From: a virus
Taxonomy: Duplodnaviria; Caudoviricetes
IMG/VR virus record: IMGVR_UViG_3300010167_000010
Coordinates: 128,001-192,000 of that record
Strand: one strand, 5' to 3'
Length of the DNA stretch: 64,000 nt
Of this stretch, positions 6,413 through 62,879 are shown piece by piece. Below the pieces are notes generated by a model. It saw only the letters and a list, made by a program, of their open reading frames with translations, was not told where the DNA came from and searched no databases. Positions within the stretch are counted from its first letter, which is position 1, and each line of letters starts with the position of its first letter. The translations under genes and the position numbers were made by a program.

Positions 6413-6432
6413 AATAATTAGTTTAGTTTATC

Positions 6433-6831: not shown

Positions 6832-6853
6832 ATTATTTATTTAGTAAATTAAC

Positions 6854-7129
6854 TTATTGCCACGGTTCCCAATCATCAAAACCTTTAATAAAGGCTTCTG
6901 CATCATCTGAGTCTTCTGGAAAACCGAATTCAAAACCGTATTCATTTAATGAATTTACTAATCTTTCTGCATCTTCATTATCATATCCGTTATCCATTAA
7001 ATGTTCTACTTTCTCATCGTCGGCCATATTATATTCGTACATTTCAATTAAAACTGAATTATCGTTTACATAAACAGATTCTTTTAATTTTTTAAATTCA
7101 TTATAAATTTGATCAAATGTTTTTTCCAT
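6854..7129 (-). CDS. Small acidic putative internal head protein
   Basis: MEKTFDQIYNE leader shared with other late proteins; SD AAGGA upstream. Confidence 0.45.
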   Translation of the reverse strand: MEKTFDQIYNEFKKLKESVYVNDNSVLIEMYEYNMADDEKVEHLMDNGYDNEDAERLVNSLNEYGFEFGFPEDSDDAEAFIKGFDDWEPWQ

Positions 7130-7162
7130 TTTATTTCCTTTAATAGTTAGTTACTAAATATT

Positions 7163-7672
7163 ATGAGTTTACTATTTGAAAGAATATATGCTAAATCTCT
7201 AGAAAATAAAGCTGTAATAAATGATAAAGAAATTCATTTAACTCCTTTAAGAGATGTGTTACGACAAGCTCAAAATTATTTTAAAAGAAACTTATTAGAT
7301 AAAACTATAATTACTAAAGAAAACAAGAAAATATCTATAACAGAAAAAGGGTTTAATGAATTATTTTTCTCTATTGGAGAAGCATTACGAGGTGGCTCAA
7401 AAGGGGCTGCAGATGTTTTTAAATCTAGAGCTGACGATGAAGATTATTGGTATGACATTTTATCTATTGTTGTTTCGTTAGAAGATATTCTCAAAGATAT
7501 GGAATTTGATTATAGTAAACCAAATTATAAACAAGAAAAGAAACCTAATGTAGAAAGATATGATACTTATTCTTGTGAAGTTTTGATGGATGACGAATTA
7601 CATGATACTAAAATACGAGTTGAAGTCGATAAAGATAATAAGAAAAAATATTATTTTCATTATATAGATTAG
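7163..7672 (+). CDS. Putative virion cargo protein, LPD3/MuF-C-like
   Basis: 'KKISITEKGFNE...KKPNVERY...IRVEV...YYFH' layout; leader LLFERIY..LE; late promoter. Confidence 0.4.
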   Translation: MSLLFERIYAKSLENKAVINDKEIHLTPLRDVLRQAQNYFKRNLLDKTIITKENKKISITEKGFNELFFSIGEALRGGSKGAADVFKSRADDEDYWYDILSIVVSLEDILKDMEFDYSKPNYKQEKKPNVERYDTYSCEVLMDDELHDTKIRVEVDKDNKKKYYFHYID

Positions 7673-8259
7673 TCACTTAAAGATATTCCCATATAATAAG
7701 CAACATCTTCAAACATTTCTTCTGTTAAAGTTTGAGTTCCAGCATATTGCGCAAAACGTTCATAATCTAAATCTTTTACACATTGTCGTAAAAGTGATGC
7801 TGATGCTTGTTCAGTTTTATCTAAGCTATTATCATCTCTTTGACCGGCAAGCTCTATTTCTAGCTTATCAAATTTAAAATATTCATTTTCTTTTAATCTG
7901 TCATTAAATTCTTTTATATCATTATATTTTTTAGCTGTTTGAAATTCTTTAACCCGATCACTACCACCAAATAAATAACAAACTTTATATCCCATTTTAT
8001 AAATAATTGATAATGCTTGATATAAATTAGCTGCTTGATCTTTTGAAACTGTAGTATTATCTAAGTCATTAATCATATCTTCAACAAATTTAACTTTATT
8101 GTCAAATGGAAGTGGATTCTTTTTTGGATCACAACTACTACTTAATAATAAAATTGCGTCTGCATCTAATTTTATTGCAAGATCATCCATTTGTTTGGCC
8201 ATTTTTCTATGACCAATTGTAGGAGGATTAAGTCTTCCAAAATTTATTACTGCTTTCAT
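7669..8259 (-). CDS. Cytidylyltransferase-like HxGH nucleotidyltransferase
   Basis: FGRLNPPTIGH, KKNPL, GSDR and SASLLR motifs of the T4-like phage cytidyltransferase family. Confidence 0.85.
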   Translation of the reverse strand: MKAVINFGRLNPPTIGHRKMAKQMDDLAIKLDADAILLLSSSCDPKKNPLPFDNKVKFVEDMINDLDNTTVSKDQAANLYQALSIIYKMGYKVCYLFGGSDRVKEFQTAKKYNDIKEFNDRLKENEYFKFDKLEIELAGQRDDNSLDKTEQASASLLRQCVKDLDYERFAQYAGTQTLTEEMFEDVAYYMGISLSD

Positions 8260-8693
8260 TATAATCCTTTCTCATATTCTACAACTGCTAATTTAGCTTT
8301 CATTTTAACTCTATCGTCTTCTAACCAATGAGAATAAACCGGTCTCACTTCACAATGTTTTCTTGCCCACCCACTAAAATCTCGAGGGTAAACTTTTTCT
8401 ATTACTTCATAATCTTTTCCAACACGTTCTAAAACATAATCATTGTGAACTACATATTTTGGCATACCTTTTGTTGGCTTATCAAACAATGTTCCTTCAT
8501 TTAATATATCATCAAAAGATTTTATTTTCTTTTCTTTTCTTTTTAATTTATAAACATATTTCATAGCATCTTCTTTAGTTTCAAAATAATCTATAAAGGC
8601 ATTATCCATAATTAATCCTACTTTTTTATAGCGCATATCTGGATCATAAAATAATTCATACCCTTTTCTTTTTATAAATGGTTCTCTTATCAA
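8259..8693 (-). CDS. Hypothetical protein
   Basis: Coupled ORF in the operon; internal KSFDDILNE motif. Confidence 0.6.
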   Translation of the reverse strand: MIREPFIKRKGYELFYDPDMRYKKVGLIMDNAFIDYFETKEDAMKYVYKLKRKEKKIKSFDDILNEGTLFDKPTKGMPKYVVHNDYVLERVGKDYEVIEKVYPRDFSGWARKHCEVRPVYSHWLEDDRVKMKAKLAVVEYEKGL

Positions 8694-9370
8694 AATGGTA
8701 TCTCCTTATCACCTTTCATCATTGCTAATTCTTCTTGATCTTGTTCGGCCTTTTCTAATTTATTTGAAGTTCTACGAGGATCATCATTTTCTTCAATAAT
8801 ATTTTCATCTTCGTCCCAATCAACATCGATCCATTTTTGTGATGCTAAATAATCTGCTAAGTGTAAACATTTTTCATCAAATTCTTCTGGAGCAGGTGCA
8901 CCTTTATCGAAATTACCCATGTGAGCATAGACTAATCGGGCTTCATCTTTTAAGCCAATTCGGTGTAATTCCATTCCAGCATCTTTAGCATGATATTTAG
9001 ATGTATGTTGACTATCATCAGAAGAATACTTAAATATATCATGTGCAAGAGCTGCTATTATCATAGTATCTTGATCTAATTCTGGAAATGCATTACAAAT
9101 TACTTGAACAAATCTAACTACTGCTTTAGTGTGTTTAGATAATCCAAATTCTTTATTAGCGAATTTTGGATGATATTTTCCAGTAGATGACGCGCTTCCT
9201 TGTATATTTTTATATGCTGATGTTCTTAATAAATTTTCTAATTTAGTACGTTTAGAATTATCTTTAATTAAATTTAATTGCGCTTTAAATCTAACGTTAA
9301 TTGGAGATTCAAGCATGAGTTGTTCTTCATATAAATATTGTTGGTAAATCTCTTCAAATAATTTTATCAT
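8690..9370 (-). CDS. HD-domain phosphohydrolase
   Basis: SSTGKYHP...H...ALAHDIFK...H...HMG...LHLADY. Confidence 0.85.
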   Translation of the reverse strand: MIKLFEEIYQQYLYEEQLMLESPINVRFKAQLNLIKDNSKRTKLENLLRTSAYKNIQGSASSTGKYHPKFANKEFGLSKHTKAVVRFVQVICNAFPELDQDTMIIAALAHDIFKYSSDDSQHTSKYHAKDAGMELHRIGLKDEARLVYAHMGNFDKGAPAPEEFDEKCLHLADYLASQKWIDVDWDEDENIIEENDDPRRTSNKLEKAEQDQEELAMMKGDKEIPF

Positions 9371-9380
9371 TTTATTTCCT

Positions 9381-12300
9381 TTAACTTATTTTTATATGAT
9401 CAGCAATTTTTGTAATTAAATTAGATCCTTTTTCATCTACAACTGATAATGGATATTTTGCAGCACGAGATAATAAACAAGTTAAATTAAAAATTAAATT
9501 TTGTTTAACATTCTTAGGTTTTGCTAATTGAGTTCCCTCAAACTTATTTTTTAAATTACTTAAAAAATTTATCAACTCATCTCTAAATAAAGAAGATTTT
9601 GAACCACGTGCTGTTTGTATTTCGTTTAATTTATTTAAATAATAAATTTTATAAAAAGTATTTTCTCCCAATCTTTGTAATAATTTTGCATAATTTTTTA
9701 TTTTTTCATTAGGTGAAGTTCCCGTATAGGAAGAATTTTTAAATATATTTTGAAATTTAATTAAATCTTCACCATATTCATCTAAAATTTCTCTATTACT
9801 TATATCTTTATCTTCTAATTTTTCAGCTATTTCTGTTATAAGTAAATTATCATTTTCAGAAAAATTAAATAAATTATAATTTTCAAAATCATTTTTACTT
9901 CTTGAACCTAATAAATTATTTGTATATAAAATAGAATAAAAATCTTTTAATTTATTTATAGATGATAATTCATCTTTTAATCCATTAGAAAATCTACCAA
10001 TTTTTGCACCTGTTAGTGAATCTGTTCCTGGCATAGCTTCCATTTGTTGTGCTTCATCCTCTGATTTTCTTTTAAATAATAAATTCATAGATTTTAAATG
10101 AGTACTAATATACCCATCATCAGAAGTTCTTAATGTTAATATTGCTCCGGAAGGCTGATCTGATATAGAATAATTTTCAATAAATGTACTTTTTAATCCT
10201 ATTTCAAAATAAACGAATTTTTTTAAATCATCAGTATTAAAATATTGTTTATTTTTATTATCTCCAGCTATATAAAAATTTCCTTTTATTATAGAAATAT
10301 CATATGTATTATAATCATTTTTTTTAAGTGAAATAGGAATATATTTTTTATTTAAAAATAAATTATTAGAATTTTGAATATATTTCTCTGCTGAAGTTCC
10401 ACTTTTTACCGATTTTCCAAACTCTATAACTTCTCCTATGTGATCTTTTGCAACGAAAAAAATATCAGCTGGTAATATAGAATCTCTATCTATTCTTTTA
10501 TTATTAGAAGTTATTAAAGTTACTTTTTCTAAAACATTTTTTAATTTATCTATATCTTCTCTAGAAAAACTTTTTTCTAATTGATTATATGTAATACCAT
10601 CAATATAAGAAGGATGAATTAAAAAATAATCTTCTAATTTTAATGCACCATCTTTATATAAAGTAGTTAAAGAATTAAATATTTTTCTATTATCATCAAT
10701 ACTATCAAAGGATTCGATCCAACTATCAATAAAAGATGAAATTCTACCTACGTTTACTGGGTATTTATTATTCATTTCTATTTTTTTAGGATTGTCTCTA
10801 TCAAGAATTTTATTAAATTCTTCAATACATTTTTGTTCATCTGTAATATCACCTTTTTCAGAAATATAACTATCATTAAGTGCAATTTTTACACCCTGTT
10901 TAATTATTTTTCCCAAAAAATATTCTTGTAATACAGTAATATCTGATTTTTCAAATTTTTGTTCACCTAATTCTAATCTAGCTAGGCTTTGTTTTGTTTT
11001 ACCAGCCTTTATAAAAGCTGGTATCAATTCTTTTGGTGGTGCACTTCCAGTTCCTCTTATAGCTAAACTTCCGTCATTGAAAATTGCTATTTTTTCTCCA
11101 TCAATATCTTTTTGAAAATTACTATATTTTAATAAAAAAGGTTTTAATTCTTCGTTTTTAGGTCGTGAAGCTCTATTTAATGGGTGTACACTTATTTTAG
11201 TTTCATATCCAGTTTTTGTTTGACTAGAAGTTTTATTCCAAAATAATAAATGTGAAAATTCCTTATTTAATTTTTTACATAAATCACTTAAAAGATTATT
11301 TCCTAAGTTTTCTAAAAATTCATTTTTAGGTATATTTATTATTGAAACTGGTGCAGATCTTGGATCTAATTCTTTTTTAGAAATTTTAGCAGGTTTCGAT
11401 TTTATTTTTTCTTTTGTATTTAAACTCTGAGTTAAAACTTTTTCTACTTTAGATTTAACTTTCCCATTTTTAACTATAGATTTGATTATAATAGTATAAG
11501 TACCATCTGATTTAGTTCTTAATTTTGCTTCCATAGAATTATCAGTATATTTATCTTTTATATTTTTTAAAGCTCTTTTAGCAGAATCTAAATTAGTATA
11601 AGGTTCTATTCCAGTACCAGAAGTTCCGCGCATTCCTTCTTCACGTTCTCTTGGACCAACATATTTTTCTTGTTCTAATAATTTTTCTATAAGTTGATCA
11701 TTTTCTATTAAATCATCTTCAATTTCTTCTAATGCTAACTCGGCTTCTTCTTCAGTTTCAAAAGTTAAAATTATTTCTTCTATTTCTTCACTTTCAGTAA
11801 TTCTTTCAAACCCCTTAACAACATCAGGTGAACGATTAAAATAACTAAATGCTGATCTATCTACCATCTTAACAAATTTACCATCATTATCACTAATAAC
11901 AAAACCTTCACCATTAGTAACTTTCATCCCGCCAGATCTAGTATTGACTCTTGTAATCCACTCCTGTGATTTATTAAATTGATCTATTAGAATTCCTTTT
12001 ATATGAGTAGCAAATTGAAGTCCTCTAGCTATCTCTTGAATTAAATCTTTATTATTTTCTACAATAAAATGTAATTCTTTAGATGTAGAACTAATACTAT
12101 CTCTTTTATTATCTCTTCCTTTAACTGTTTTTAATTTATCTAATCCAGAATATGCTTTATGCATTTTTTTAGTAATCCAATCATGGAGTTCTTCTATAAA
12201 AGTACTTGTTTCTATTTCTTCACCTTTGTCAACTTTATGATTTTGTAAAGTCATCATATAGAATTGAATAAATTCTTCATTACTAACTAAATTTTCATAT

Positions 12301-13070
12301 TCATCATGGTTAATTAATCTATTACAAATATTTTTTAATTCTTCGATACCATTAAATAATCCTTCAGAAGCATTTTTATCTAATGTAACTTTCCCACTTA
12401 AATCTGGTAAACGAGCATCAATAACAAAAGCCCAATCTGGAACATTTTGTAATTCATCAATTCTAACATCATTAGACTGTTGTGGAGATTTTAAACTTCC
12501 TCTATAACGAGTATGAAAAACTATTCCAATTTCTGTTGTAGCAATCCTAGCTGCTAAATTAGTATCTGCTGGAGCAGCGTAGGCTAAAGTATTGGGTTGA
12601 ACATAAACATACTTAACACCCTCAGCTTCAAATGTTTTATAGTCACCATGGGTCCAAAGCATATCACCTTGCCAAATTTCTCCAGGTGGAATAATCTCTT
12701 CTTGTGCAAGTTTAAGTGCTGCTTTCATTTTTTCTTTTAAACCTTCAGCCCTACTATCATTATTTATATCTTCATTAGAATAATAAACTTTAGGATTTAC
12801 ATTAAAAAGTGATTTTGTACTTATACCTGGGGCATTTAAGTCGGCTGTTCTTGTCCACATTGTGATTGCTGGAGCTCCGTCCCATTTAACTGTGGGGCGT
12901 GGTTGTGAAGAATCGGCCGTTCCTTCTACAATTTCTAATGCATGATTAAAAAATCCGAGCATTCTTTTAATATAATCTTGACCTAATAATAGGCTATCTT
13001 CAATATGAAGGGCATGGGTATTTGCTTCCCGTAATTTTATATTTTTATATCTTTCTTGTAATGATAACAT
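9381..13070 (-). CDS. Large protein with an N-terminal ligase-like (DUF6267-like) nucleotidyltransferase domain and an unknown C-terminal region
   Basis: NTHALHIED, TVKWDGAPAI (KxDG), WQGDMLW, PNTLAY, GIVFHTRY, EGFV, VKMVDR. Confidence 0.65.
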   Translation of the reverse strand: MLSLQERYKNIKLREANTHALHIEDSLLLGQDYIKRMLGFFNHALEIVEGTADSSQPRPTVKWDGAPAITMWTRTADLNAPGISTKSLFNVNPKVYYSNEDINNDSRAEGLKEKMKAALKLAQEEIIPPGEIWQGDMLWTHGDYKTFEAEGVKYVYVQPNTLAYAAPADTNLAARIATTEIGIVFHTRYRGSLKSPQQSNDVRIDELQNVPDWAFVIDARLPDLSGKVTLDKNASEGLFNGIEELKNICNRLINHDEYENLVSNEEFIQFYMMTLQNHKVDKGEEIETSTFIEELHDWITKKMHKAYSGLDKLKTVKGRDNKRDSISSTSKELHFIVENNKDLIQEIARGLQFATHIKGILIDQFNKSQEWITRVNTRSGGMKVTNGEGFVISDNDGKFVKMVDRSAFSYFNRSPDVVKGFERITESEEIEEIILTFETEEEAELALEEIEDDLIENDQLIEKLLEQEKYVGPREREEGMRGTSGTGIEPYTNLDSAKRALKNIKDKYTDNSMEAKLRTKSDGTYTIIIKSIVKNGKVKSKVEKVLTQSLNTKEKIKSKPAKISKKELDPRSAPVSIINIPKNEFLENLGNNLLSDLCKKLNKEFSHLLFWNKTSSQTKTGYETKISVHPLNRASRPKNEELKPFLLKYSNFQKDIDGEKIAIFNDGSLAIRGTGSAPPKELIPAFIKAGKTKQSLARLELGEQKFEKSDITVLQEYFLGKIIKQGVKIALNDSYISEKGDITDEQKCIEEFNKILDRDNPKKIEMNNKYPVNVGRISSFIDSWIESFDSIDDNRKIFNSLTTLYKDGALKLEDYFLIHPSYIDGITYNQLEKSFSREDIDKLKNVLEKVTLITSNNKRIDRDSILPADIFFVAKDHIGEVIEFGKSVKSGTSAEKYIQNSNNLFLNKKYIPISLKKNDYNTYDISIIKGNFYIAGDNKNKQYFNTDDLKKFVYFEIGLKSTFIENYSISDQPSGAILTLRTSDDGYISTHLKSMNLLFKRKSEDEAQQMEAMPGTDSLTGAKIGRFSNGLKDELSSINKLKDFYSILYTNNLLGSRSKNDFENYNLFNFSENDNLLITEIAEKLEDKDISNREILDEYGEDLIKFQNIFKNSSYTGTSPNEKIKNYAKLLQRLGENTFYKIYYLNKLNEIQTARGSKSSLFRDELINFLSNLKNKFEGTQLAKPKNVKQNLIFNLTCLLSRAAKYPLSVVDEKGSNLITKIADHIKIS

Positions 13071-13101
13071 ATTATTTAGTTAGATAGATTTACAATAATG
13101 T

Positions 13102-34915: not shown

Positions 34916-36188
34916 CCCATTCCTCTTTATATTCTGGATCTTCTTCATCCACTTTATCAATTATTCCATATTTTTTTATTAAACCACTTTCTAATTCTTC
35001 TATAGAATTATATTCTTCCCCTTGAAAAATAAATGGTGTTTGTTCTTTTTCTAATAAAAGAATGTCCATCAATTCATATAACATATGTTGTTTTAATTTT
35101 CCAGTTTCTTCATCAAAATAATTTATTAAAGAATATTGTTTTTGCTTATCTTGGGTTTTAATGCTTAAAAGATCATCAGTAACGTTTTTTAAATCTTTAA
35201 ATTCTTTTTTATTAAAAGCACCTTTTCTAGTAAAATTATCTGGAAAAGATCTAATCCTAGATTTAATTTCATCCCATTCTTGTGAAGTCCAACAACCCTT
35301 TTTTCCTAAATAAGAATCTAGCCTTAAAAGTTTTCTAGTATCTAATTCTTTATATATTTCATCATTTTTATTATCGTATGGAACGATTTTAATTAAAGAC
35401 GGATCAAATAACATTATATTACCAATATCATTTTCTTTAGAAACATACCCATCATATTCTAATCGTTTAATTATTTTAGTAACTTCCGGATTTTCCATAT
35501 AATTCCAATCATGACTAGAAAACATTAAGTCTAATTCTTTTTGAAGATTATTCATTACTGCTTTATATTGTCGTTTAGCATAATTTTCATAAAATTCTTC
35601 TGGGTTTTTTCTAACTTCTATTAAAAATTTTTCTCTATCTTTTCTATTTGAAGGGTTAAATATATTAGGTTGTTTAATAATTAAACATTTATAAACATAA
35701 AATTCATATTGATCAAATTTTGTACTTAAGTATGAATCTAAATAATGATGAATCATCGTTAAGTGTGGTGTTAAAAATACACCACCAAAAGTATCATCAC
35801 CTTTTCTAAAACTATTTCTTTTTTCAAACTGAGTAAATTTATTAGGTGATATATGATAATAAAATCTACGACTATTATAAGCCATTTCGTTTAAACGATA
35901 TATATCATCAAATGTTTTTTCTTTAAATGAACTTTTAGCATTTTCAAATCCTCTTTTATTCCCAGCTCTGAAAGCATTTGCTACCATTTTTCCAATTTCT
36001 TCATTTTTAAGATAACCATAACTATCTACAAAATTTGTAGTTTTTTGATATAAAATTGATCCATAATCATCTGGGTTTGGGCTTGTTTCCCATTCTCTTC
36101 CACCTTCTCTGGGATCCCAATTTTTTGGGAAATATTTATCTATGTCTTCTTCTGACATTGCTTCTAATATTTTTTCAAAAGATTTCAT
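34908..36188 (-). CDS. ADP-ribosyltransferase-like (ART-PolyVal-type) putative head protein
   Basis: YYHIS...F..F...GVFLTP...Y...NIFNP...YDGY...LFDPSLIK; MKSFEKILEA leader. Confidence 0.6.
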   Translation of the reverse strand: MKSFEKILEAMSEEDIDKYFPKNWDPREGGREWETSPNPDDYGSILYQKTTNFVDSYGYLKNEEIGKMVANAFRAGNKRGFENAKSSFKEKTFDDIYRLNEMAYNSRRFYYHISPNKFTQFEKRNSFRKGDDTFGGVFLTPHLTMIHHYLDSYLSTKFDQYEFYVYKCLIIKQPNIFNPSNRKDREKFLIEVRKNPEEFYENYAKRQYKAVMNNLQKELDLMFSSHDWNYMENPEVTKIIKRLEYDGYVSKENDIGNIMLFDPSLIKIVPYDNKNDEIYKELDTRKLLRLDSYLGKKGCWTSQEWDEIKSRIRSFPDNFTRKGAFNKKEFKDLKNVTDDLLSIKTQDKQKQYSLINYFDEETGKLKQHMLYELMDILLLEKEQTPFIFQGEEYNSIEELESGLIKKYGIIDKVDEEDPEYKEEWDA

Positions 36189-38302
36189 TTATTTTTTCCT
36201 AAATAAAATTTTAATTTTTTAATAATTTTATTTATATCTAATGGTTTTCCAATATGATCATTCATACCAGCATCAATACAATCTTGAATATCACTACTTA
36301 AAACACTAGCTGTCATAGCTATAATTGGAATAGTTTTAGCATTATCTAAATTTAAATTTCTAATAGCCTTTGTTGCTTCTATTCCGTTCATTTCGGGCAT
36401 TTGAACATCCATAAAAATTATATTATATTTGTCGGGATTTTTAGTAAACATTTTTATTGCTTCTTTTCCATTAATTGCTACATCGATTTTTATATTTGTT
36501 GGTTCTAATAATGTAGTAATTATTTCCCTGTTTATCTCTATATCTTCTACCAGTAAAATAGTCATATCTTTTAAATCTACGTTTTCTTCATTATCATTTT
36601 TCATTGGAATTTTTTTAGTTGTTCCTTCTTTCATTTTAACTATAAAGATAAATGATGAACCCTTTTTATATTCAGATTCTACCCAAACTATACCATTCAT
36701 CATTTCAATAATATGTTTTGAAATAGATAAACCTAATCCAGTTCCGCCAAACTTTTTATAAGTATCTCTATCAGCTTGTTGAAATGATTTGAAAAGTTTA
36801 TCTTGTTGTTCTTGAGTTAAACCAATTCCAGTATCTATAATAGAAGTTTTAATAACACAGAAGTTACTTTCTCTAGAAAGTAATTTAGATACAATACTTA
36901 TTTTTCCATTTTCTGGAGTAAATTTAACAGCATTACTTAATAAGTTTATAATAACCTGTGCTAAACGTTGTTCATCTCCTACTAAAACTTGAGGAATATT
37001 TTTATCTATATCTAATTCTAATATTTGACTTCTTTCATTTATCTTTACACTATACAAATCTACAATATTTTGTATCATGTCTCTATAAACGAATTCTATA
37101 GAATTTAATTCTAATTTATTTGCTTCTATTTTTGATAAGTCTAAAATATCATTTATAATTCCCAATAAGTGTTCTGAAGCTTCATGTATTTTATTAAAAC
37201 AATATTCTTTCTTAGTTATATCTTCAGCACTTTTTCCAATTGAAGACATTCCAATAATAATATTTATTGGTGTACGTATTTCATGAGACATATTAGCTAA
37301 GAAAATACTTTTATATTCATTTTTTAAGTTAGCTTTAACTCTTTCTTTTTCAATTTTTATTAAAATTATAATTATAAATAACGAAAAGAATAAACTACAT
37401 ACTGATAAAACTATAACAAGATTATAAGAAGCTCTATAAAAATTCATTGTTGGAACTATTGTAGTTAAAAACCAATCATTTTCCATTCTCTTTATAAATA
37501 TAATACTCTTTTCATCTCTATAATTTATAAAATTATGATTATAAATTTCATCATATCTAATTGAAGCAAAACTAATTGCTGATAAAGATTCAATTTCTAT
37601 AAAAGATAAACCTATAAATTCTTTATTATGATGAATTAAAGTTCTAGAATCTCTGTAAACTAAAGTACTATAACCTACAGAATTAACTACAATAGAATTT
37701 AAAATTTCTTCTAAATCTGTTAAATCAACTCGTATTGCAACAACGCCTAACCAATCACCAAACTTATCATATATACTTCTAGAATAAATTACAACAAGAT
37801 TATGGGTTAAGATATCTGGGAAAGATAATGTTTCTATAATTTCATTATTATTTTTAGCATTTATAAACCAATCTCTAGTTGATGGCTCTATAGTATGTGG
37901 AATATTATCTATCCCAGCAAGATGATGGAATTTACCATCAATTAAAACATACCCAAAAAAACCATCTGGTTTAATATATTCTTTTCCATAAAATAAAAAT
38001 TGAGTATTTAAATATACCATATAATTTTCAATAGTTCTTATTACATCTTCTTCTTCATTTTCAAAAAAGTGATTATTTATTATATTTTCTATCGAAATTG
38101 CAAAACCGTCTAATACATATCTAGGACTTTTAAGTGTATATTCTACTTTTGCAACAGCAGTATTTAAAATTCCTTCGGCATTTGCTACTAAAAAATAGTT
38201 TATAGTTCTATTTATAAAATTAAAACTAATAAAAGCCATTAAAAAGAATGAAACTGCCACAATAAAAATCTGCAGAGTCAGAGTTTTAAAATTTTTCAAC
38301 AT
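36185..38302 (-). CDS. Hybrid sensor histidine kinase (TM-Cache-TM-HisKA-HATPase-REC)
   Basis: FLANMSHEIRTP, NLLSNAVKFT, DTGIG, GGTGLGL, LLVED, FMDVQMP, KP. Confidence 0.95.
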   Translation of the reverse strand: MLKNFKTLTLQIFIVAVSFFLMAFISFNFINRTINYFLVANAEGILNTAVAKVEYTLKSPRYVLDGFAISIENIINNHFFENEEEDVIRTIENYMVYLNTQFLFYGKEYIKPDGFFGYVLIDGKFHHLAGIDNIPHTIEPSTRDWFINAKNNNEIIETLSFPDILTHNLVVIYSRSIYDKFGDWLGVVAIRVDLTDLEEILNSIVVNSVGYSTLVYRDSRTLIHHNKEFIGLSFIEIESLSAISFASIRYDEIYNHNFINYRDEKSIIFIKRMENDWFLTTIVPTMNFYRASYNLVIVLSVCSLFFSLFIIIILIKIEKERVKANLKNEYKSIFLANMSHEIRTPINIIIGMSSIGKSAEDITKKEYCFNKIHEASEHLLGIINDILDLSKIEANKLELNSIEFVYRDMIQNIVDLYSVKINERSQILELDIDKNIPQVLVGDEQRLAQVIINLLSNAVKFTPENGKISIVSKLLSRESNFCVIKTSIIDTGIGLTQEQQDKLFKSFQQADRDTYKKFGGTGLGLSISKHIIEMMNGIVWVESEYKKGSSFIFIVKMKEGTTKKIPMKNDNEENVDLKDMTILLVEDIEINREIITTLLEPTNIKIDVAINGKEAIKMFTKNPDKYNIIFMDVQMPEMNGIEATKAIRNLNLDNAKTIPIIAMTASVLSSDIQDCIDAGMNDHIGKPLDINKIIKKLKFYLGKNK

Positions 38303-38345: not shown

Positions 38346-40844
38346 TTAGTCCTTTCTAATACGATTTTTTAACCAATCTTCATAATTATTAAAGTCATCG
38401 TATAAATAATTATATAATTCTCTTTTAACTAAAACTGGTTCTACACGTTGATGGGCTGATAATTCTAAATTATGTCTAATAAAAAATTCTTTAGTAATTT
38501 TTTCTACATAATAATCTATCAAAAATTTAATTATAGATCTATCCGAAGCTACACCATCTCTTTCTAAAATTTGTTTTTTCGCATCATCCCAACTTTTTGG
38601 TATTTCTTCAATCATTCTAATTTTAGCAGAATTTTCTGGTTTATCAGGTTTACCATAATAAAAATTTTTTAATTTTTCAGTAACCATTTCTGATAAATTG
38701 TTTTCATAAGTTTTATTTATTTTTTCTGGATCTATATTTAATATATTTTCTGCATAATAATTTATAGTATCATCAGATACATTACAATCAGTAAAAGTAA
38801 TAGTTCCTGTAATTTCTTTTGGTAAAAAATTAACATAATGTTTGTCAAATTCACATTCTTTAAAAATTACATTTCCTGTTAGTTTATTTGGGAAAAAATC
38901 TTCATTATAATTATATTCACTTATATTAGTTAAAATAAAATTTTTACAGATAATTTCTGATATAAGTGCTGGAAATTCCGCTGTACTTTCTAAACCCGTT
39001 ACTGGACTATTATATGCATCAGCTATAGATCTTTTAAATACATGTTTTAATAATATTGGTATTTCTCTTTTACCAAATACAATTCCGTGATTACTATCAT
39101 CATTTAAGAAAACAGTATCGTGGTCTCTTATAGTTAAAGTAAATGTTTGATTACCATTATATTTTAAATCAAAACCTCCTCCAAATTCAGCTTCTATTTC
39201 ATCTAAATCTTTTAAAAACCATTCGACTGCTCTTCCAAATGCTGGTCCATGATCTTCTTTCATATAATCTTTGTTACCAGTAACATCTATAACTCGTTGA
39301 TTTCCTTTTGGAGATTTTTTATTCATTTCTTCTTTTATATCTTTAAAAATTGGATATAAATCTACTTCTTCTAATTTACCATTTGTAGACATTAATTTTT
39401 GAATATAATCTAAATTCATATTATTTCCAATTTGTGTATCTTCTTGGTCCCAAACATTTGCAGTATTTTCTATTGGATTATATTCTATCATAAATTTTTT
39501 ATTTTCAGTTCTATCATATTGCATTAGAAATAAATGACGTTTATGTTGTGTGTAGTTTTTCCAGTGAGTACCTACAGGCCCATAAGCAGTATTTGTTGTA
39601 CCAATACACCACTTTGCTCCTATACCATGTGCATTAAAAGAATTCATAAATACCGCAGCTTTATAGGTAAATGGAGCAACAAATATTTGATCTGAATCAT
39701 GATAATAAACTTTTGTTCCAGGTACGTCTTTCCAAATTGCTGATAAATCTTCACCTGATTTAGATTTTTTTATATTTTTAGACTTAGTTTTTTCAGCTGA
39801 TTCCATTACATCTGAAAAATCAGAAAATTTTAAATTTTTTTTATTCCAATCTATTTTACTTTCTGCGTGTGGATTTTTATTAAAAAAAACTATTAATTTT
39901 TCTTTTTCTTCTTGATCTAAATTAGGTAATTTTTTAATTAGGTGATCTTTCTTTTCTTGTAAATGTTTTGGTAATTCGTAGACATGAGCATCAATAAAAT
40001 CGTATCCTTTTTCGCTAGCAATAGTAGCTCTATGATTTCCATCCATTACACAATATTGATCTTTAAAATGAAAAACATCTATTGGTTTAATATCAATTTT
40101 ACCGTTTCCATCTGAAATATTATCAAATTGTTCCCAATCATAATCATCTGTATCATCATCTTCAAATTCTTGCACTATTTTATTTAATGGTATAGTTTTT
40201 AACTTAGATTTACATTTAGCTTTTATACAATCAGCCCACCATCTATATCTATCATCAGGATCCATTTCTTCAATAGGAAATCCATCCCAATCCATTGATG
40301 GAAATTCAGTATATTTTGATTTTTCATATATTTGATTAAAACTTTCTGTTATACGTTCGTCTTCAATTGGCTCTTCTAATTCATCCATCTCAGCAGCTTT
40401 GGTTTCTTCTTCAACTTCGGTATTTTCTGGAAGTGAAGGTTCTTCAATTGGTGGCTCTACTTCTTCTGGTCCTTTTTGAGCTTTAGTTTCTGCTTCAATT
40501 GGTTTTGCATCAACGTTAGATGTATTCATTTTTGGTAAATCTAAAGTTTCAGCGTGTGATTGAATATCTTCAATATCAGCAGCAACAGTTTCTTCTGCAG
40601 CTTCTGATCTAATGCTATCTTCTGTTCTAGTTCCTTCAGATGGTGTTCCCGCTGGTGCTTCAGGTGCTTCAAGTGGTTCATCGGGTTGTGTTGTTGCTGT
40701 AGCTGTAGATTGTGTACTGCCCATCATTTTTAACATTTCTGGAATATCATTATCTAAGTGCTGTAAAACAGCCCAGATATGTTTACAAATTTGGGTTCCG
40801 GGATGTGATTCTTGTAATAATTCATACTGTTCTTGAAGTGTCAT
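38346..40844 (-). CDS. Multidomain putative virion protein: C-terminal half of a SWIM finger, acidic linker, ParB-like domain and unknown domains
   Basis: ICKHIWAVL at the N-terminus; PIDV...VMDGNHR (ParB/Srx); AKWCI...HWKNY; late promoter abutting the ATG. Confidence 0.65.
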   Translation of the reverse strand: MTLQEQYELLQESHPGTQICKHIWAVLQHLDNDIPEMLKMMGSTQSTATATTQPDEPLEAPEAPAGTPSEGTRTEDSIRSEAAEETVAADIEDIQSHAETLDLPKMNTSNVDAKPIEAETKAQKGPEEVEPPIEEPSLPENTEVEEETKAAEMDELEEPIEDERITESFNQIYEKSKYTEFPSMDWDGFPIEEMDPDDRYRWWADCIKAKCKSKLKTIPLNKIVQEFEDDDTDDYDWEQFDNISDGNGKIDIKPIDVFHFKDQYCVMDGNHRATIASEKGYDFIDAHVYELPKHLQEKKDHLIKKLPNLDQEEKEKLIVFFNKNPHAESKIDWNKKNLKFSDFSDVMESAEKTKSKNIKKSKSGEDLSAIWKDVPGTKVYYHDSDQIFVAPFTYKAAVFMNSFNAHGIGAKWCIGTTNTAYGPVGTHWKNYTQHKRHLFLMQYDRTENKKFMIEYNPIENTANVWDQEDTQIGNNMNLDYIQKLMSTNGKLEEVDLYPIFKDIKEEMNKKSPKGNQRVIDVTGNKDYMKEDHGPAFGRAVEWFLKDLDEIEAEFGGGFDLKYNGNQTFTLTIRDHDTVFLNDDSNHGIVFGKREIPILLKHVFKRSIADAYNSPVTGLESTAEFPALISEIICKNFILTNISEYNYNEDFFPNKLTGNVIFKECEFDKHYVNFLPKEITGTITFTDCNVSDDTINYYAENILNIDPEKINKTYENNLSEMVTEKLKNFYYGKPDKPENSAKIRMIEEIPKSWDDAKKQILERDGVASDRSIIKFLIDYYVEKITKEFFIRHNLELSAHQRVEPVLVKRELYNYLYDDFNNYEDWLKNRIRKD

Positions 40845-40912
40845 ATTATTTAGTTAATTTTTAAAACATATTTCTGTTTACATACTTGTTAACTTAAATA
40901 TAACTAAATAAT

Positions 40913-41494
40913 ATGAATATGTTAAAATGGAAAAAAGATCTAAATAAAGATTGGACTTGGCGAAATTTAGCTGTTAAATATTTTAATTTACAAAAAGGTG
41001 AAATAATTCACCATTTACGAGAAACTGAAGAGCAAAGAGATTTTAACGATAACCATTATGAAAGATGGGGATTTGATTTTGATAGTGAAATGAAATATGC
41101 AATTAAAATGACAGCTGAAGAACATAATAAATATCATTATCAAAATGAAGAAACTAAACAAAAAAGATTAAAAACTTTAAAACAAAATAATAAAAAATGG
41201 ATTATAACAGAAGAACATAGAAAAAAATTAAGCGCAGCTTCTAAAGGGAAATCAAAATCAAAAGATCATATTGAAAATAATAAAAAAGCAAGACAATGGT
41301 ATTTTAATCAAGGTCCTTCTAAAGAAACTAATAAAAAAAGAAGCGATACAATGAAACAAAAATATACTGATGGTGAACTTTTTTCAGAAGAACATAGAAA
41401 AAATTTAAGTATTGCAGCAAAAAAAAGAACACCAATGAGTGAAGAAACTAAAAATAAAATAAGAAATACTTTAAAAAATAAAATTAAACTTTAG
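40913..41494 (+). mobile_element. Free-standing HNH/NUMOD3 homing endonuclease
   Basis: IIHH...EEHNKYH plus repeated (S/T)EEHRKxLS and SEETKNKI NUMOD3-like units. Confidence 0.75.
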
Positions 41495-41969
41495 TCCAAC
41501 CAGACGAGTCATGTCTATTTGCCCATATATCTTTTCCATGTTGACCAGTAAATGACGAATAAGTATTATCTTTTTCATCATCTTTTTCAAACATACCTTG
41601 CCAATAAAATGCGCCACAATCACATTGAACTTTTGCATCACACTTATCAAATACTTGTTGAATTATTTGTTGTTGACTACTGTAAGGTAAAGAATTAAAA
41701 TTAGGCGGAACTATATTTTGTAAGTCTTCAAATCTAATAAAAACTGCATAACCTTTATTTAATCCATGTAATGGTTGACCATTAACTGAAAAATGTGTTG
41801 GTCCGCTTTCTCCAGATGCTTCTACTTCATACAAAACAGTAAAAGAATTAGGATAATTTAATATAGTTTTTATTAGTTGGGCTCTTCCTGTTCCGCCTTT
41901 ATGTATTGCTTTATTAGTTATACCAGAAGTTACAAAATCTTTAAGAAGAGTTTCCCATAATGCATTCAT
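41484..41969 (-). CDS. Protein carrying the N-terminal half of a SWIM zinc finger
   Basis: KVQCDCGAFYWQG with no downstream CxH; late promoter abutting the ATG. Confidence 0.65.
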   Translation of the reverse strand: MNALWETLLKDFVTSGITNKAIHKGGTGRAQLIKTILNYPNSFTVLYEVEASGESGPTHFSVNGQPLHGLNKGYAVFIRFEDLQNIVPPNFNSLPYSSQQQIIQQVFDKCDAKVQCDCGAFYWQGMFEKDDEKDNTYSSFTGQHGKDIWANRHDSSGWTKV

Positions 41970-41993
41970 ATTAGTTAGTAAAACTTAAATAAC

Positions 41994-44243
41994 TTACTCT
42001 TTCTTATCTATTTCATCGTTAATCATATTATCTAAGTCTTCACGAAGTGGTTGTGAAAGCATAACATCTAAATTCATATTTTGTTTTTTAGTATCATTTA
42101 ACATATCAATAACTGTCATTTCTTTTAATCTAGATTTACCATTACTTAATGTACCTGTATCACTTTTATCTAATAATACTTGAAATGTTTCATATAATGG
42201 GTGTGATTCAGTAATTTTTGGTATAAGCATTTCATGTGCAATTCCTGGTCGTTGCCATTCTGTTAAATTTTGTTCTGCAAGCCAATTAAAATAAATATCA
42301 TTTTTACATTCTCTATATCGTTCACTTATTTCTTTTAATCGTCTTCGTGCTTCTTTTATACCATTTCGTTTAATCTTTTCTCGTAATAATTTTTTAGTTT
42401 TTAGATAATATTCACGATGTTCTTTATTCATAGACTCTGGTAATTCGCCGCCCTCTTCACCCATGTCTCCACCAGCGTCTCCACCTTCAGCAGCAATATC
42501 AATATCCATATCTCCACCACCCGCGTCATCACCGCCTTCTCCACTTTCTTCATCTGAAGTATCGGCCGCTTGAGCTGCCGCTTTTGCAATGGCGCTGATT
42601 CTAATCCATCGTTGTAAATCAGTTGGATCTAAGAATGTATATTTAGATAAAATATCAGCAACAACATCTTCTGGTAATGGTTCACCTTCTTCCATTCCGA
42701 GAACTCCTTGTAACATTTCAACAATACTATTTGCTAAATCAATTGCAGCAGTTCTAGCTTCTCTTTTATCTTGTCCCATATCTTCAGCTGGAAATCTCAT
42801 AGATAAAACAAATGGGACATTATAATCAAATTCTCCAGTAATAGCAAAATGTAATCTAATAAGCTGTCCTAAACATTCTAAAAATGATGATTGAATTGTA
42901 TAAACGTGTCTAGCAAATGGTTTATATTGTTCTGTTAATGCAATACCTGAATTACCAAAACCGCCAAATTCTTGATCTAAATAAGATTTTGGAACACCAC
43001 AAGCAATAGCAACTCTATCTTGAAACATTTCTAAATCACCAGTAAAATCCATATCAACTTTACTTTCTTTTACATCAAATTCTAATAAACCATCTGGAAC
43101 CCAAATTTTTGTATTTACAGTATATACTTCTAATGAATTACTCATTGGAGTTACACCAATATTTTCATAATCTTCTCTAACTGAATTAACTGTTTCAAAT
43201 GCTGTGGCAACACCAACACCTTCTGTTCCTTTTACTTTATATAATTGAACTGGAAATGATGATGCTCTAGCTAAACCTTGTAATGCCATGGTGCTATAAC
43301 ATTGTTTAAACGGTGCTAAGGCCATGAGTAATGGTGGTGTTCCGTATGGGAAAAATTCACTATTATCTGCTCTGTATCTAAAATGTGTAATAAGCCAAGG
43401 TGGTACAATTATTCCGTCTGCAAATTCAAATCCGAGTAATTTGGTATCGAACATATCAGCAAAATTTTCATCTAAATCGGCGAGATGATCAGTTCCTGCT
43501 CTTGTAGTTATTAAAGTAACTAATTTATTTATTTTAGACTGACGGTTTTTCATTATTTCATTTTCACCAGTCATTTGTGCAACTACTTCAGCCATGTGAG
43601 CAGCGCTGAATTCTAATCGTTCTCTTAATGATGGAACTTTTAATGGTATGATTCGTTCTACTCCACGTTCTGTAACTCTATGAGCCCAAAGTGCTTCACC
43701 ATATTGTTCGAGATCATAACATGCAGAACTAATACGCTGTTGTGTTAAACCCCATTGTGCAAATAATTCGTAACATTTATTTACAAAAGGAATAGATGGA
43801 GATTCAACTGATAATAATCTATTTTGATCATCTAATTGTGTAGCTTCATCTGAAACTAATTGACATACCCGAGATACAAATGGATCATTTAACACCATAA
43901 ATCTTAATTCATTTAATCTTTGTTGTCGTTCAGCTATATCAGAATAAACTAATGTAGTTTCATTTATATATGCATTAAAATATTTATTTAAAGAAGTTGC
44001 TAATGGTGCCGATTTAAAAACTGAACCTAAAGCAGCATGTTTAATTCTATAAACTTCATTACCTACGTCTACTTTTACAAATCGTAATCCATTAACTTTT
44101 TCAAATTCTGTTTCAGCTTTATTTTTTGTAACACCCTGCCACCCAAATATAGATGACATTCTTTTGGAAAAAGATGACTTAAATATTTCTGATTTAGGTT
44201 TATTTCCTGATGAATAAACCGTTTCTTGTAATTTATCTGCCAT
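41994..44243 (-). CDS. Portal protein, T4 gp20-like
   Basis: ITHFR...PYGTP.L, ARAS, IWVP, ACGVPKSYL, FARHVYTIQ, acidic/Gly tail; late promoter. Confidence 0.8.
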   Translation of the reverse strand: MADKLQETVYSSGNKPKSEIFKSSFSKRMSSIFGWQGVTKNKAETEFEKVNGLRFVKVDVGNEVYRIKHAALGSVFKSAPLATSLNKYFNAYINETTLVYSDIAERQQRLNELRFMVLNDPFVSRVCQLVSDEATQLDDQNRLLSVESPSIPFVNKCYELFAQWGLTQQRISSACYDLEQYGEALWAHRVTERGVERIIPLKVPSLRERLEFSAAHMAEVVAQMTGENEIMKNRQSKINKLVTLITTRAGTDHLADLDENFADMFDTKLLGFEFADGIIVPPWLITHFRYRADNSEFFPYGTPPLLMALAPFKQCYSTMALQGLARASSFPVQLYKVKGTEGVGVATAFETVNSVREDYENIGVTPMSNSLEVYTVNTKIWVPDGLLEFDVKESKVDMDFTGDLEMFQDRVAIACGVPKSYLDQEFGGFGNSGIALTEQYKPFARHVYTIQSSFLECLGQLIRLHFAITGEFDYNVPFVLSMRFPAEDMGQDKREARTAAIDLANSIVEMLQGVLGMEEGEPLPEDVVADILSKYTFLDPTDLQRWIRISAIAKAAAQAADTSDEESGEGGDDAGGGDMDIDIAAEGGDAGGDMGEEGGELPESMNKEHREYYLKTKKLLREKIKRNGIKEARRRLKEISERYRECKNDIYFNWLAEQNLTEWQRPGIAHEMLIPKITESHPLYETFQVLLDKSDTGTLSNGKSRLKEMTVIDMLNDTKKQNMNLDVMLSQPLREDLDNMINDEIDKKE

Positions 44244-44267
44244 AATAATTAGTTTAAAGAGCTATTA

Positions 44268-61967: not shown

Positions 61968-62857
61968 GTATAAGCATTATTGTTTTTACAAAAATCATAA
62001 AAACTATTATAATGACCAGGTGGAGTTTTAATTAAATTAGTTTTTCTTCTTTTTAAAATATCTTCGACTGGGTCATCACCAAATTGAGTTATATGACCTA
62101 ATATATCTTTTTCAGAATCTCCAGAGCCGCAATCTGCAGATAAAATTCCATTAGGGTGTACAGCAATAGAAAAATCGCAACCAATAATATGGCGAGGCCA
62201 AATCATATATGGTATGTCGTTTTCTAAATTTTTACCCCGTCCTCCAGCTATAAGCGGTAATTGAAATTTAAAAAAATTTCTATTTAATTTAGATTCTAAT
62301 TCTGGAAAATCATTTGGATCATAAGGCGGCCAACCATCATTTTTTATAAACTTAGTATATACATCAATTTTAGAACTATCAATTATTGCAGTAGAAAAAG
62401 TTTTAATAGGTGTATCTAAAAATTCTTCCATAAGTTGATTTACTATATCAAAACTAGGTATTTGTTCTAATAAATATTTATTTAATGATACGCATAAAAA
62501 ATCTGGTTTTATTTCTTCTTTTACTAATTTAATTAAATCTTTATTTTTTGATAGTAATAATCCATTAGTAAATATACAAAAAGGTTTATTATATTTTCTA
62601 CATCGGTGACTATAATTTAACATTCTTTCTGGATATAAAGTTGGTTCACCACCTTGAAAATGTACATATTTTATATGTTTAGATTTTAAACATAAATCTA
62701 ATAATTCTGGATCTAAATCTTCTTTTTCTTCTATATAATTTTCAGTGGGTACATAACAATGTCTACATTTTAAATTACATTTATTAGTAATTCTAATTTT
62801 TAAATGCCAAAACATACTTTTAAAAGCATTAGTAAAATCTTCATTTTGTGCTAACAT
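61946..62857 (-). CDS. Radical SAM protein
   Basis: CNLKCRHC, GGEP, TNG; C-terminal Cys (Twitch/SPASM-like). Confidence 0.9.
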   Translation of the reverse strand: MLAQNEDFTNAFKSMFWHLKIRITNKCNLKCRHCYVPTENYIEEKEDLDPELLDLCLKSKHIKYVHFQGGEPTLYPERMLNYSHRCRKYNKPFCIFTNGLLLSKNKDLIKLVKEEIKPDFLCVSLNKYLLEQIPSFDIVNQLMEEFLDTPIKTFSTAIIDSSKIDVYTKFIKNDGWPPYDPNDFPELESKLNRNFFKFQLPLIAGGRGKNLENDIPYMIWPRHIIGCDFSIAVHPNGILSADCGSGDSEKDILGHITQFGDDPVEDILKRRKTNLIKTPPGHYNSFYDFCKNNNAYTCLKEYP

Positions 62858-62879
62858 ATTATTTAGTCTACTAAATATT
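62858..62879. promoter_or_regulatory. Back-to-back late promoters, each abutting an ATG
   Basis: CAT-ATTATTTAGT-CT-ACTAAATATT-ATG. Confidence 0.75.

What the first reader, a model, noticed from the sequence alone, without database searches (positions are those of the whole stretch)
40780..41640. SWIM zinc finger split between two genes by an antisense homing endonuclease
Seen: 41484-41969 carries CDC (KVQCDCGAFYWQG) and stops about 35 aa later, overlapping the end of the convergent HNH gene. The next minus-strand gene begins MTLQEQYELLQESHPGTQICKHIWAVL and supplies the CxH. Each piece has its own late promoter abutting its ATG. No intron or intein features are visible, and the endonuclease is on the opposite strand. 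Established: SWIM is CxC-Xn-CxH, and Aeh1 nrdA split by mobE forms a composite active site. Inference: the Zn site is assembled in trans from two polypeptides, and the downstream half gained a new promoter and an LQE-ending leader.
Basis: partly seen in the sequence, partly recalled or inferred. Interest (0 to 1): 0.75.

Follow-up and report, generated by a model that had tools for sequence, protein, structure and literature searches.

The report
Endonuclease-split zinc-finger gene in giant phage
In a 329-kb uncultured phage, a selfish endonuclease gene has landed backwards inside the gene next to the portal gene, cutting a zinc-binding motif into two separately started proteins, which adds an unusual case to the few known phage genes broken this way.

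Summary
Related phages encode one protein directly after the portal gene. Its N-terminal domain of about 190 aa carries CxC, then about 46 residues, then CKH. In this window a 690-bp AT-rich cassette (40809-41498) lies between the codons for G157 and the next native Ser. That site is a predicted loop seven residues before the CKH helix.

The cassette carries:
- an antisense NUMOD3/HNH-like endonuclease gene;
- two divergent copies of the phage's gene-start motif;
- a stop for the first half (tail WTKV);
- a start plus a 12-aa leader (MTLQEQYELLQE) for the second half.

All 23 related viral loci and all informative database relatives have an unsplit gene. Rfam finds no intron. Across the family the three Cys switch together (C,C,C to S,D,T), so the residues on both sides of the break form one site.

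Trans-reassembly of the zinc site is plausible but untested. The leader resembles N-terminal tags found on about 10 other proteins of this phage, and these look like T4 capsid-targeting propeptides. The second half may therefore enter the head on its own.

SWIM membership is sub-threshold in Pfam. The scan has noted this only on this same genome.

Verdict: real. It is a new variant of the Aeh1 nrdA/mobE "gene in pieces" type.

The parts
41994..44243 (-). Portal gene (749 aa), immediately upstream of the split gene
   Evidence: Weak Portal_T4 and phrog_213 hits. It is 85-86% identical over 550 aa to the portals that precede the unsplit gene in L004-L006.
41967..41979 (-). Gene-start motif ACTAACTAAT-ATG of the first half
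41484..41969 (-). First half (161 aa): 157 native residues of the N-terminal domain, then the new tail WTKV and a stop
   Evidence: All invariant residues of the family are retained (compared with the translation).
41616..41624 (-). Codons of C116-D-C118 (the CxC pair of ligands)
40809..41498 (.). Inserted cassette, 690 bp, GC 23% against 31-32% in the flanking exons. No flanking direct repeats.
40913..41494 (+). Antisense free-standing endonuclease gene (193 aa): HNH-like N-terminal module plus NUMOD3-type repeats. It is shorter at the C-terminus than its relatives.
   Evidence: Relatives are free-standing at other loci of related phages.
40903..40915 (+). Gene-start motif ACTAAATAAT-ATG of the endonuclease gene
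   Evidence: It forms a 90% inverted repeat with the motif of the second half (I4).
40842..40854 (-). Gene-start motif ACTAAATAAT-ATG of the second half. An in-frame TAA lies four codons upstream.
40809..40844 (-). New 12-codon leader MTLQEQYELLQE
   Evidence: Absent from unsplit relatives. It resembles the N-terminal tags of other proteins of this phage and of P0002 and P0003.
38346..40808 (-). Native remainder of the gene: CKH helix, acidic linker, FNQIYE motif, a module of about 115 aa with a DGNHR motif, a KWCIG-type domain and a C-terminal region
40779..40787 (-). Codons of C20-K-H22 (the CxH pair of ligands)
   Evidence: K and H are invariant in the family.

Best explanation
A free-standing homing-endonuclease cassette moved into the coding sequence of the post-portal head protein. 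This protein is of the 'polyvalent' type: an anchor domain followed by variable cargo domains. The cassette comprises the endonuclease gene, a bidirectional pair of the phage's gene-start motifs, and 12 leader codons. It inserted in antisense orientation, in the loop just before the CKH helix of a SWIM-like CxC...CKH zinc site.

Shown: the gene is now two ORFs, 161 aa and 832 aa, each with its own start motif. No native residue has been lost.

Inferred: both halves are made separately late in infection. The first roughly 30 native residues of the second half (the CKH helix plus the next helix) dock back onto the first half and complete the domain and its metal site by fragment complementation, as in Aeh1 NrdA-a/NrdA-b. 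The leader, which ends in L-x-E exactly at the native junction, acts as a head-targeting propeptide that a prohead protease could remove.
For: 1. Contiguous orthologues exist, syntenic after the portal. All 23 viral loci are unsplit.
2. The junction is exact and the 49-residue spacing is restored.
3. The insert has 23% GC and carries an endonuclease ORF. Its family shows invariant H34, N45, H71 and H75 plus NUMOD3 repeats, and sits free-standing at other places in the sister phages.
4. No intron was found.
5. The AF2 model of the unsplit domain has pLDDT 92.7 and pTM 0.87. The break lies in a coil between helix 146-153 and the CKH helix 164-172, and the helices after the break are modelled at pLDDT 96-98.
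6. The ligands switch as a set, about 41 CCC+H against 25 SDT+H, so residues on both sides of the break form one unit.
7. All invariant residues are kept. The split domain is 57-66% identical to relatives, while unsplit relatives are 62-67% identical to each other, so there is no sign of faster decay.
8. The same split ORFs appear in three assemblies.
9. Tails created by a homing-endonuclease insertion are essential for reassembly in Aeh1 NrdA (PMC3045599).
Against: There is no direct evidence that the halves meet.
- The C-terminal tail is only 4 aa.
- The insertion cannot be dated, so the intact residues may simply reflect a recent event.
- The leader resembles an autonomous targeting tag, which would make reassembly unnecessary.
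- No gp21-type protease was detected (PF03420, inconclusive).
- Zn binding itself is inferred.
Confidence: 0.5

Rival explanations
1. Decoupling without reassembly. The insertion destroyed the N-terminal zinc domain. The cargo half (832 aa) is packaged or acts on its own through its new targeting-type leader. The 161-aa piece is either a recent relic or works alone.
For: The leader matches a class of N-terminal tags (F/L-x-x-I/x-Y, often followed by L-x-E). These tags sit at residues 3-7 of 10 proteins of this genome, against about 0.85 expected, and also on the stand-alone relatives P0002 and P0003. In T4, a 10-aa N-terminal sequence alone suffices for head targeting, and gp21 cuts after L/I-x-E (PMC9026906). 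Family members of only about 190 aa exist without cargo, so the domain and the cargo are separable modules.
Against: The second half still keeps the CKH helix and the following helix, with the invariant K and H intact. The first half keeps every invariant residue and its own start motif. Divergence is not accelerated. Both observations are also compatible with a very recent insertion.
Confidence: 0.38
2. One polypeptide is restored by RNA splicing, ribosomal bypass or protein splicing across the insert.
For: The insert length (690 nt) is a multiple of three. Phage genes hit by endonucleases are often intron- or intein-borne.
Against: A permissive Rfam scan of 40300-42100 finds no group I or group II intron. 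The endonuclease is on the opposite strand. Stops close the frame four codons after the junction and four codons before the new ATG. There are no intein blocks. A gap of 690 nt is far beyond known bypasses.
Confidence: 0.02
3. Assembly artefact, or a defective minority genome in which the gene is simply dead.
For: It is a metagenome-derived genome with no read data available here. The split is unique among relatives.
Against: Identical ORFs occur on three contigs from JGI, Logan and ENA assemblies, up to 329 kb with terminal repeats. The junction is codon-exact with functional-looking start and stop signals. Both ORFs are long and open.
Confidence: 0.05

Closest known systems
Aeromonas phage Aeh1 nrdA-a / mobE / nrdA-b (Friedrich et al. 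2007; Crona et al. 2010, PMC3045599)
   Same: A free-standing HNH-family endonuclease gene is inserted in a functionally critical region, splitting one gene into two. New C- and N-terminal tails arise from the insertion. No RNA or protein splicing is involved. Related phages have the contiguous gene.
   Different: Here the endonuclease is antisense and brings a bidirectional start motif. The host gene is a virion or ejected-type protein, not a nucleotide-metabolism enzyme. The break separates two pairs of ligands of a small metal site. The tails are 4 and 12 aa. Function of the split product is untested.
T4 topoisomerase genes 39/60 with mobA, and split gene 43 of Aeromonas phages (PMC2988022)
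   Same: An endonuclease is associated with fragmentation of a phage gene into separately translated pieces.
   Different: There is no bypass element here. The gene class and the orientation differ.
SWIM zinc finger (PF04434; CxCxnCxH)
   Same: It has the CxC...CxH signature with CKH at the start of a helix. Both halves of the Pfam model find weak matches. BFVD neighbours include phage proteins that UniProt names SWIM-type.
   Different: About 46 residues with three helices lie between the ligand pairs. No member reaches the Pfam cut-off. A third of the family has replaced the three Cys by S, D and T.
Polyvalent proteins / MuF-type head proteins (Iyer et al. 2017, PMC5512222) and T4 capsid-targeting sequences (PMC9026906)
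   Same: The gene sits directly after the portal. An N-terminal conserved module is followed by variable effector domains (ART-PolyVal, GNAT). Short N-terminal tags end in L/I-x-E.
   Different: The N-terminal module is not MuF and has no Pfam or PHROG family. Packaging and cleavage are inferred only.

Membership tests
Gene in pieces through free-standing homing-endonuclease insertion (Aeh1 nrdA/mobE type) | Related genomes carry the same gene as one contiguous ORF | tested here: met
   P0007-P0017 and loci L002-L026 are unsplit. 15 of 23 lie directly after a portal.
Gene in pieces through free-standing homing-endonuclease insertion (Aeh1 nrdA/mobE type) | The gap is occupied by an endonuclease ORF, and the junction creates new tails, a stop and a start | tested here: met
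   The insert is 40809-41498, with tail WTKV plus stop and leader MTLQEQYELLQE.
Gene in pieces through free-standing homing-endonuclease insertion (Aeh1 nrdA/mobE type) | No intron or intein that would rejoin the pieces | tested here: met
   The Rfam E-value scan found nothing relevant. The ORF is antisense, and stops flank the junctions.
Gene in pieces through free-standing homing-endonuclease insertion (Aeh1 nrdA/mobE type) | The two polypeptides reassemble into a functional protein | not testable with these tools
   No multimer prediction or biochemistry is available. Only indirect support exists.
SWIM zinc finger (PF04434) | CxC-Xn-CxH ligand signature | tested here: met
   Present in about 41 of 80 relatives, with 46-53 residues from first to third Cys. 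The spacer is unusually long.
SWIM zinc finger (PF04434) | Score above the Pfam gathering threshold (19.6 bits) | tested here: not met
   The unsplit L003 domain scores 13.2 bits (E 0.067). Across the 32 members, 7 match with best E 0.0032, and none is reported as reaching the threshold.
SWIM zinc finger (PF04434) | Fold similarity to a solved SWIM domain | tested here: inconclusive
   ZSWIM8 (9rwz_M) gives Z 3.8, rmsd 3.8 over 91 residues, tied with unrelated rows. BFVD hits to proteins named SWIM-type have E 0.019-0.077.
SWIM zinc finger (PF04434) | Binds zinc through the four ligands | not testable with these tools
   The all-or-none switch CCC to SDT, with His kept, supports a single site.
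HNH (His-Me finger) homing endonuclease with NUMOD3 DNA-binding repeats | NUMOD3 repeats | tested here: inconclusive
   The window copy scores 14.1 bits against a 20.4 cut-off. 9 of 16 family members match, best E 4.8e-17.
HNH (His-Me finger) homing endonuclease with NUMOD3 DNA-binding repeats | HNH catalytic motif on a beta-beta-alpha element | tested here: inconclusive
   H34, N45, H71 and H75 are invariant. AF2 shows strand 30-34, strand 63-67 and helix 68-77 at pLDDT 94-97. Pfam HNH_3 hits only the distant member P0103. There is no PDB match.
HNH (His-Me finger) homing endonuclease with NUMOD3 DNA-binding repeats | Mobile: found at different loci in related genomes | tested here: met
   Copies occur elsewhere in the L002 and L003 phages and in 12 other viral contigs, mostly intergenic.
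Polyvalent / head-packaged effector proteins (Iyer et al. 2017) | Conserved module fused to variable effector domains, encoded among head genes | tested here: met
   Relatives carry ART-PolyVal and GNAT. The gene is adjacent to the portal.
T4-type capsid-targeting propeptide | Short N-terminal tag shared by several head proteins and ending in L/I-x-E | tested here: inconclusive
   10 N-terminal instances of the tag motif against about 0.85 expected. The leader fits only loosely. Having two or more L-x-E in the first 16 aa is not enriched by itself (8 of 337 against a 1.9% background).
T4-type capsid-targeting propeptide | gp21-type prohead protease in the genome | tested here: inconclusive
   PF03420 was not found, but the control genomes did not ring either.

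The most novel reading that the evidence does not exclude
The mobile cassette carries its own 'repair kit': a bidirectional start signal plus a head-targeting leader whose L-x-E end is cut by the prohead protease exactly at the native residue. The cargo half would then enter the prohead on its own, be trimmed to its native end, and complete a four-ligand zinc site in trans with the 161-aa half. This would be a metal site shared between two polypeptides, created by a selfish element.
Probability: 0.15. Interest if true: 0.75.

Novelty: new variant of a known kind. Interest (0 to 1): 0.5.

Why it matters
Only a handful of genes split by free-standing homing endonucleases are documented, and they are replication or nucleotide-metabolism enzymes of T4-like phages. 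This case extends the phenomenon in four ways:
- to a virion-associated, cargo-carrying protein of an uncultured giant phage;
- with the endonuclease antisense;
- with the cut placed between the two ligand pairs of a small metal site;
- with a new leader that looks like a head-targeting tag.

It offers a compact natural test of fragment complementation across a zinc site, and of how a host gene is refitted after invasion. It also defines an unannotated protein family that follows the portal gene: an N-terminal module of about 190 aa, with either CxC...CKH or SxD...TKH.

Tried and rejected
- **GenBank phage collection.** DNA and tblastn searches with both halves, the endonuclease and two other family members found nothing.
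- **Profile libraries.** PHROGs and NCBIfam have no family for either half.
- **PDB by sequence profile.** No match for the domain or the endonuclease.
- **Fold searches of the domain.** Foldseek against PDB gave E above 0.26, and VIA-wide gave a best Z of 3.8, so no known fold was found.
- **Fold searches of the endonuclease model.** These were dominated by its helical repeats and were uninformative.
- **P0018 as a second independent split.** Rejected. This 155-aa protein ends near the same place, but it comes from a 638-bp contig, and two scans did not recover its locus.
- **Donor of the leader or cassette in the genome.** Only the 13-17-nt start motif recurs.
- **Target-site duplication or flanking repeats.** None.
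- **Donor context in the endonuclease relatives.** None has a divergent neighbour with this leader.
- **ParB-like reading of residues about 200-330.** Not confirmed by PDB sequence search or by Pfam.
Full report
**What is in the sequence**

On the minus strand, a portal gene (41994-44243) is followed 24 nt later by a 161-aa ORF (41484-41969). This ORF contains KVQCDCGAFYWQG and ends ...RHDSSGWTKV. A 193-aa ORF on the plus strand (40913-41494) converges on it and overlaps it by 11 nt. Sixty-eight bases to the left of that ORF, an 832-aa minus-strand ORF (38346-40844) begins MTLQEQYELLQESHPGTQICKHIW. The window lies in a 329,018-bp virus record with direct terminal repeats, rated complete.

**Are the two ORFs halves of one gene?**

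Yes. An exhaustive search of 1.84 billion representative proteins with the 161-aa ORF gave 80 hits.

- In nearly all hits the match covers query residues 1 to about 157 and sits at the N-terminus of a longer protein of 190 to 1406 aa.
- Those proteins continue, after about seven more residues, with CKH.
- The closest one, P0007 (687 aa), matches the 161-aa ORF over its residues 1-158 (69% identity, E 4e-69). It matches residues 16-176 of the 832-aa ORF over its residues 162-322 (E 4e-41).
- Two related viral contigs carry this gene uninterrupted directly after their portal genes: L002 (portal 3749-5977, gene 6001-8064) and L003.
- L003 reads ...GKDIWANRHDSSG NVRGQQLCKHLW.... The window reads ...GKDIWANRHDSSG WTKV-stop, and then MTLQEQYELLQE SHPGTQICKHIW.

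Placing the break between G157 (codon 41499-41501) and S13 of the second ORF (codon 40806-40808) restores the family's spacing of 49 residues from the first to the third Cys. The insert is therefore 40809-41498, 690 bp, and no native residue has been lost.

A profile-guided scan found 23 viral loci with the domain. All have it in one ORF, and 15 lie directly behind a portal homologue. One apparent second split (P0018) is only a fragment from a 638-bp contig. The split ORFs occur identically in three assemblies.

**The insert**

- Its GC content is 23%, against 31-32% in the flanking exons and 28% genome-wide.
- It has no flanking direct repeats.
- A permissive Rfam scan finds no intron.
- The ORF it carries belongs to a family of proteins of about 190-260 aa with invariant H34, N45, H71 and H75 in the first 75 residues and repeated NUMOD3-type motifs behind them.
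- NUMOD3 passes the Pfam threshold in 9 of 16 members. HNH_3 passes only in the most distant member.
- The AF2 model shows strand, strand and helix around the conserved His and Asn residues at pLDDT 94-97. Fold and PDB searches did not name the fold.
- Relatives are free-standing, mostly intergenic, and sit at other places in the very phages that carry the unsplit gene (L027, L028) and in 12 further contigs.

I therefore read it as a free-standing homing-endonuclease gene of the HNH/NUMOD3 kind. Catalytic-class membership is likely but not proven. The window copy lacks the C-terminal module that its relatives have.

**Expression signals**

ACTAA(N)TA(A/T)T directly abutting ATG occurs 43 times in the genome, and 42 of these precede ORFs of 73 aa or more. 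In the window there are 18 sites against 2.25 expected. Genes with the motif almost never have a Shine-Dalgarno sequence (1 of 38). Of the other genes, 144 of 257 have one.

Both halves and the endonuclease gene carry the motif. The copies for the endonuclease and the second half form a divergent pair inside the insert (I4). That the motif is a late promoter giving near-leaderless mRNAs is an inference.

**The domain that was cut**

The family has no Pfam, PHROG or NCBIfam model and no relative in GenBank phages.

An AF2 model of the unsplit L003 domain is confident (pLDDT 92.7, pTM 0.87). In that model:

- the first Cys ends a strand;
- three helices follow;
- the break (G155|N156 in L003 numbering) lies in a seven-residue coil between helix 146-153 and the CKH helix 164-172;
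- a further helix runs to residue 184.

SWIM is the only recurring Pfam signal, but it stays below threshold (7 of 32 members, best E 0.0032). The ZSWIM8 match (Z 3.8) is within noise. The best BFVD neighbours are uncharacterised phage proteins of similar size (E 1.9e-4 and 4.7e-4). Two weaker ones are named SWIM-type, and some hits come from the jumbo phages BcepSauron and Erwinia Y3. "SWIM-like" is a fair label, but membership is not established.

Across 80 relatives the three Cys positions are either C, C, C (about 41) or S, D, T (25), with three C, D, C intermediates. The Lys-His pair is invariant. This all-or-none switch is good evolutionary evidence that residues on both sides of the window's break form one site.

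**What the protein is**

The domain heads proteins whose C-terminal parts vary. Examples are ART-PolyVal in P0011, GNAT in P0039, and a KWCIG-type domain in the window and in P0007. The gene sits right behind the portal. This matches the logic of polyvalent head-packaged effector proteins (PMC5512222), with this domain in the positional role of MuF. Packaging and injection are inferred.

**The new leader**

A motif of the type F/L-x-x-(I/x)-Y/F-x occurs 35 times in the proteome. Ten of these lie at residues 3-7 of a protein, against about 0.85 expected. Examples are MKDFNQIYE, MKTFKQIYE, MSLLFERIYAKSLE and MLSLQERYKNIKLRE. The motif also marks module boundaries inside the 832-aa protein (ESFNQIYE) and in its relatives. 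The KWCIG domain is always preceded by L-x-E. Stand-alone relatives begin MHLFEQILLQE-KKD and MNLLEQFLRE-KKD, which is close to the window's MTLQEQYELLQE.

In T4, the first 10 residues of internal protein III suffice for head targeting and are removed by gp21, which cuts after L/I-x-E (PMC9026906). The leader may thus be a targeting propeptide whose removal would expose the native Ser. This is suggestive only. The double L-x-E is not itself enriched, and no gp21-type protease was detected (inconclusive).

**How it most likely works**

- **Shown:** a mobile endonuclease cassette split the gene, leaving two intact, separately started ORFs.
- **Inferred (about 50%):** the halves reassemble. The CKH helix pair of the large half completes the fold and the metal site of the small half, which tethers the cargo as in the unsplit protein. 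The precedent is Aeh1 NrdA, where insertion-derived tails are essential (PMC3045599).
- **Main rival (about 38%):** the cargo half now travels by its own leader and the zinc domain is lost or idle.

Retention of all invariant residues and unaccelerated divergence (57-66% identity, against 62-67% among unsplit relatives, with portals at 85-90%) fit continued constraint. They equally fit a recent event.

**Novelty**

The kind is known: the T4 and Aeh1 split genes (PMC2988022). The variant features shown here are the antisense orientation with a bidirectional start motif, a cut between the ligand pairs of a small metal site, and a virion-type host gene in an uncultured giant phage.

Noticed in passing
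whole genome (G000); window examples 13068-13080, 44241-44253, 62855-62867: The gene-start motif ACTAA(N)TA(A/T)T abuts the ATG of 43 genes. These genes almost never have a Shine-Dalgarno sequence (1 of 38, against 144 of 257 for other genes), which suggests a class of near-leaderless, probably late, transcripts. Several other endonuclease-like genes also carry it, including GIY-YIG-like N-termini at genome positions 30677 and 105066.
   Followed up: partly
window 6854-7129, 7163-7672, 8690-9370, 9381-13070 and genome-wide: N-terminal tags of the type M-x(1-3)-F-x-x-I-Y-E occur on about 10 proteins, and the same motif occurs at internal module boundaries. They resemble the T4 capsid-targeting sequence and L/I-x-E cleavage sites. 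In the 1229-aa protein the DUF6267 domain starts right after such a leader, at residue 17.
   Followed up: partly
protein family of window 41484-41969 (alignment A1, proteins P0006-P0085): The three Cys ligands are replaced together by Ser, Asp and Thr in about a third of the family, while Lys-His stays invariant. Three members show a C, D, C intermediate.
   Followed up: yes
window 36185-38302 (-): A complete hybrid histidine kinase (dCache, HisKA, HATPase_c, receiver) is encoded directly downstream of the split gene, inside the head-gene cluster.
   Followed up: no
window 39960-40320 (-), residues about 177-292 of the 832-aa protein: An extra module of about 115 aa with a DGNHR motif (ParB-like by eye) lies between the FNQIYE motif and the LQE-KKDH boundary. 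In P0007 these two boundaries are adjacent. Pfam and PDB sequence searches did not confirm ParB.
   Followed up: partly
L030:2938-3531 and L033:2938-3507: Relatives of the endonuclease sit between the same two neighbour genes in two contigs, but the orientation relative to those genes differs. The cassette can therefore invert at one locus.
   Followed up: no
window 40997-41012 (-): The only terminator-like hairpin in 40600-42100 lies antisense inside the endonuclease gene, between the end of the first half and the start motif of the second half (1 found against 0.4 expected).
   Followed up: no
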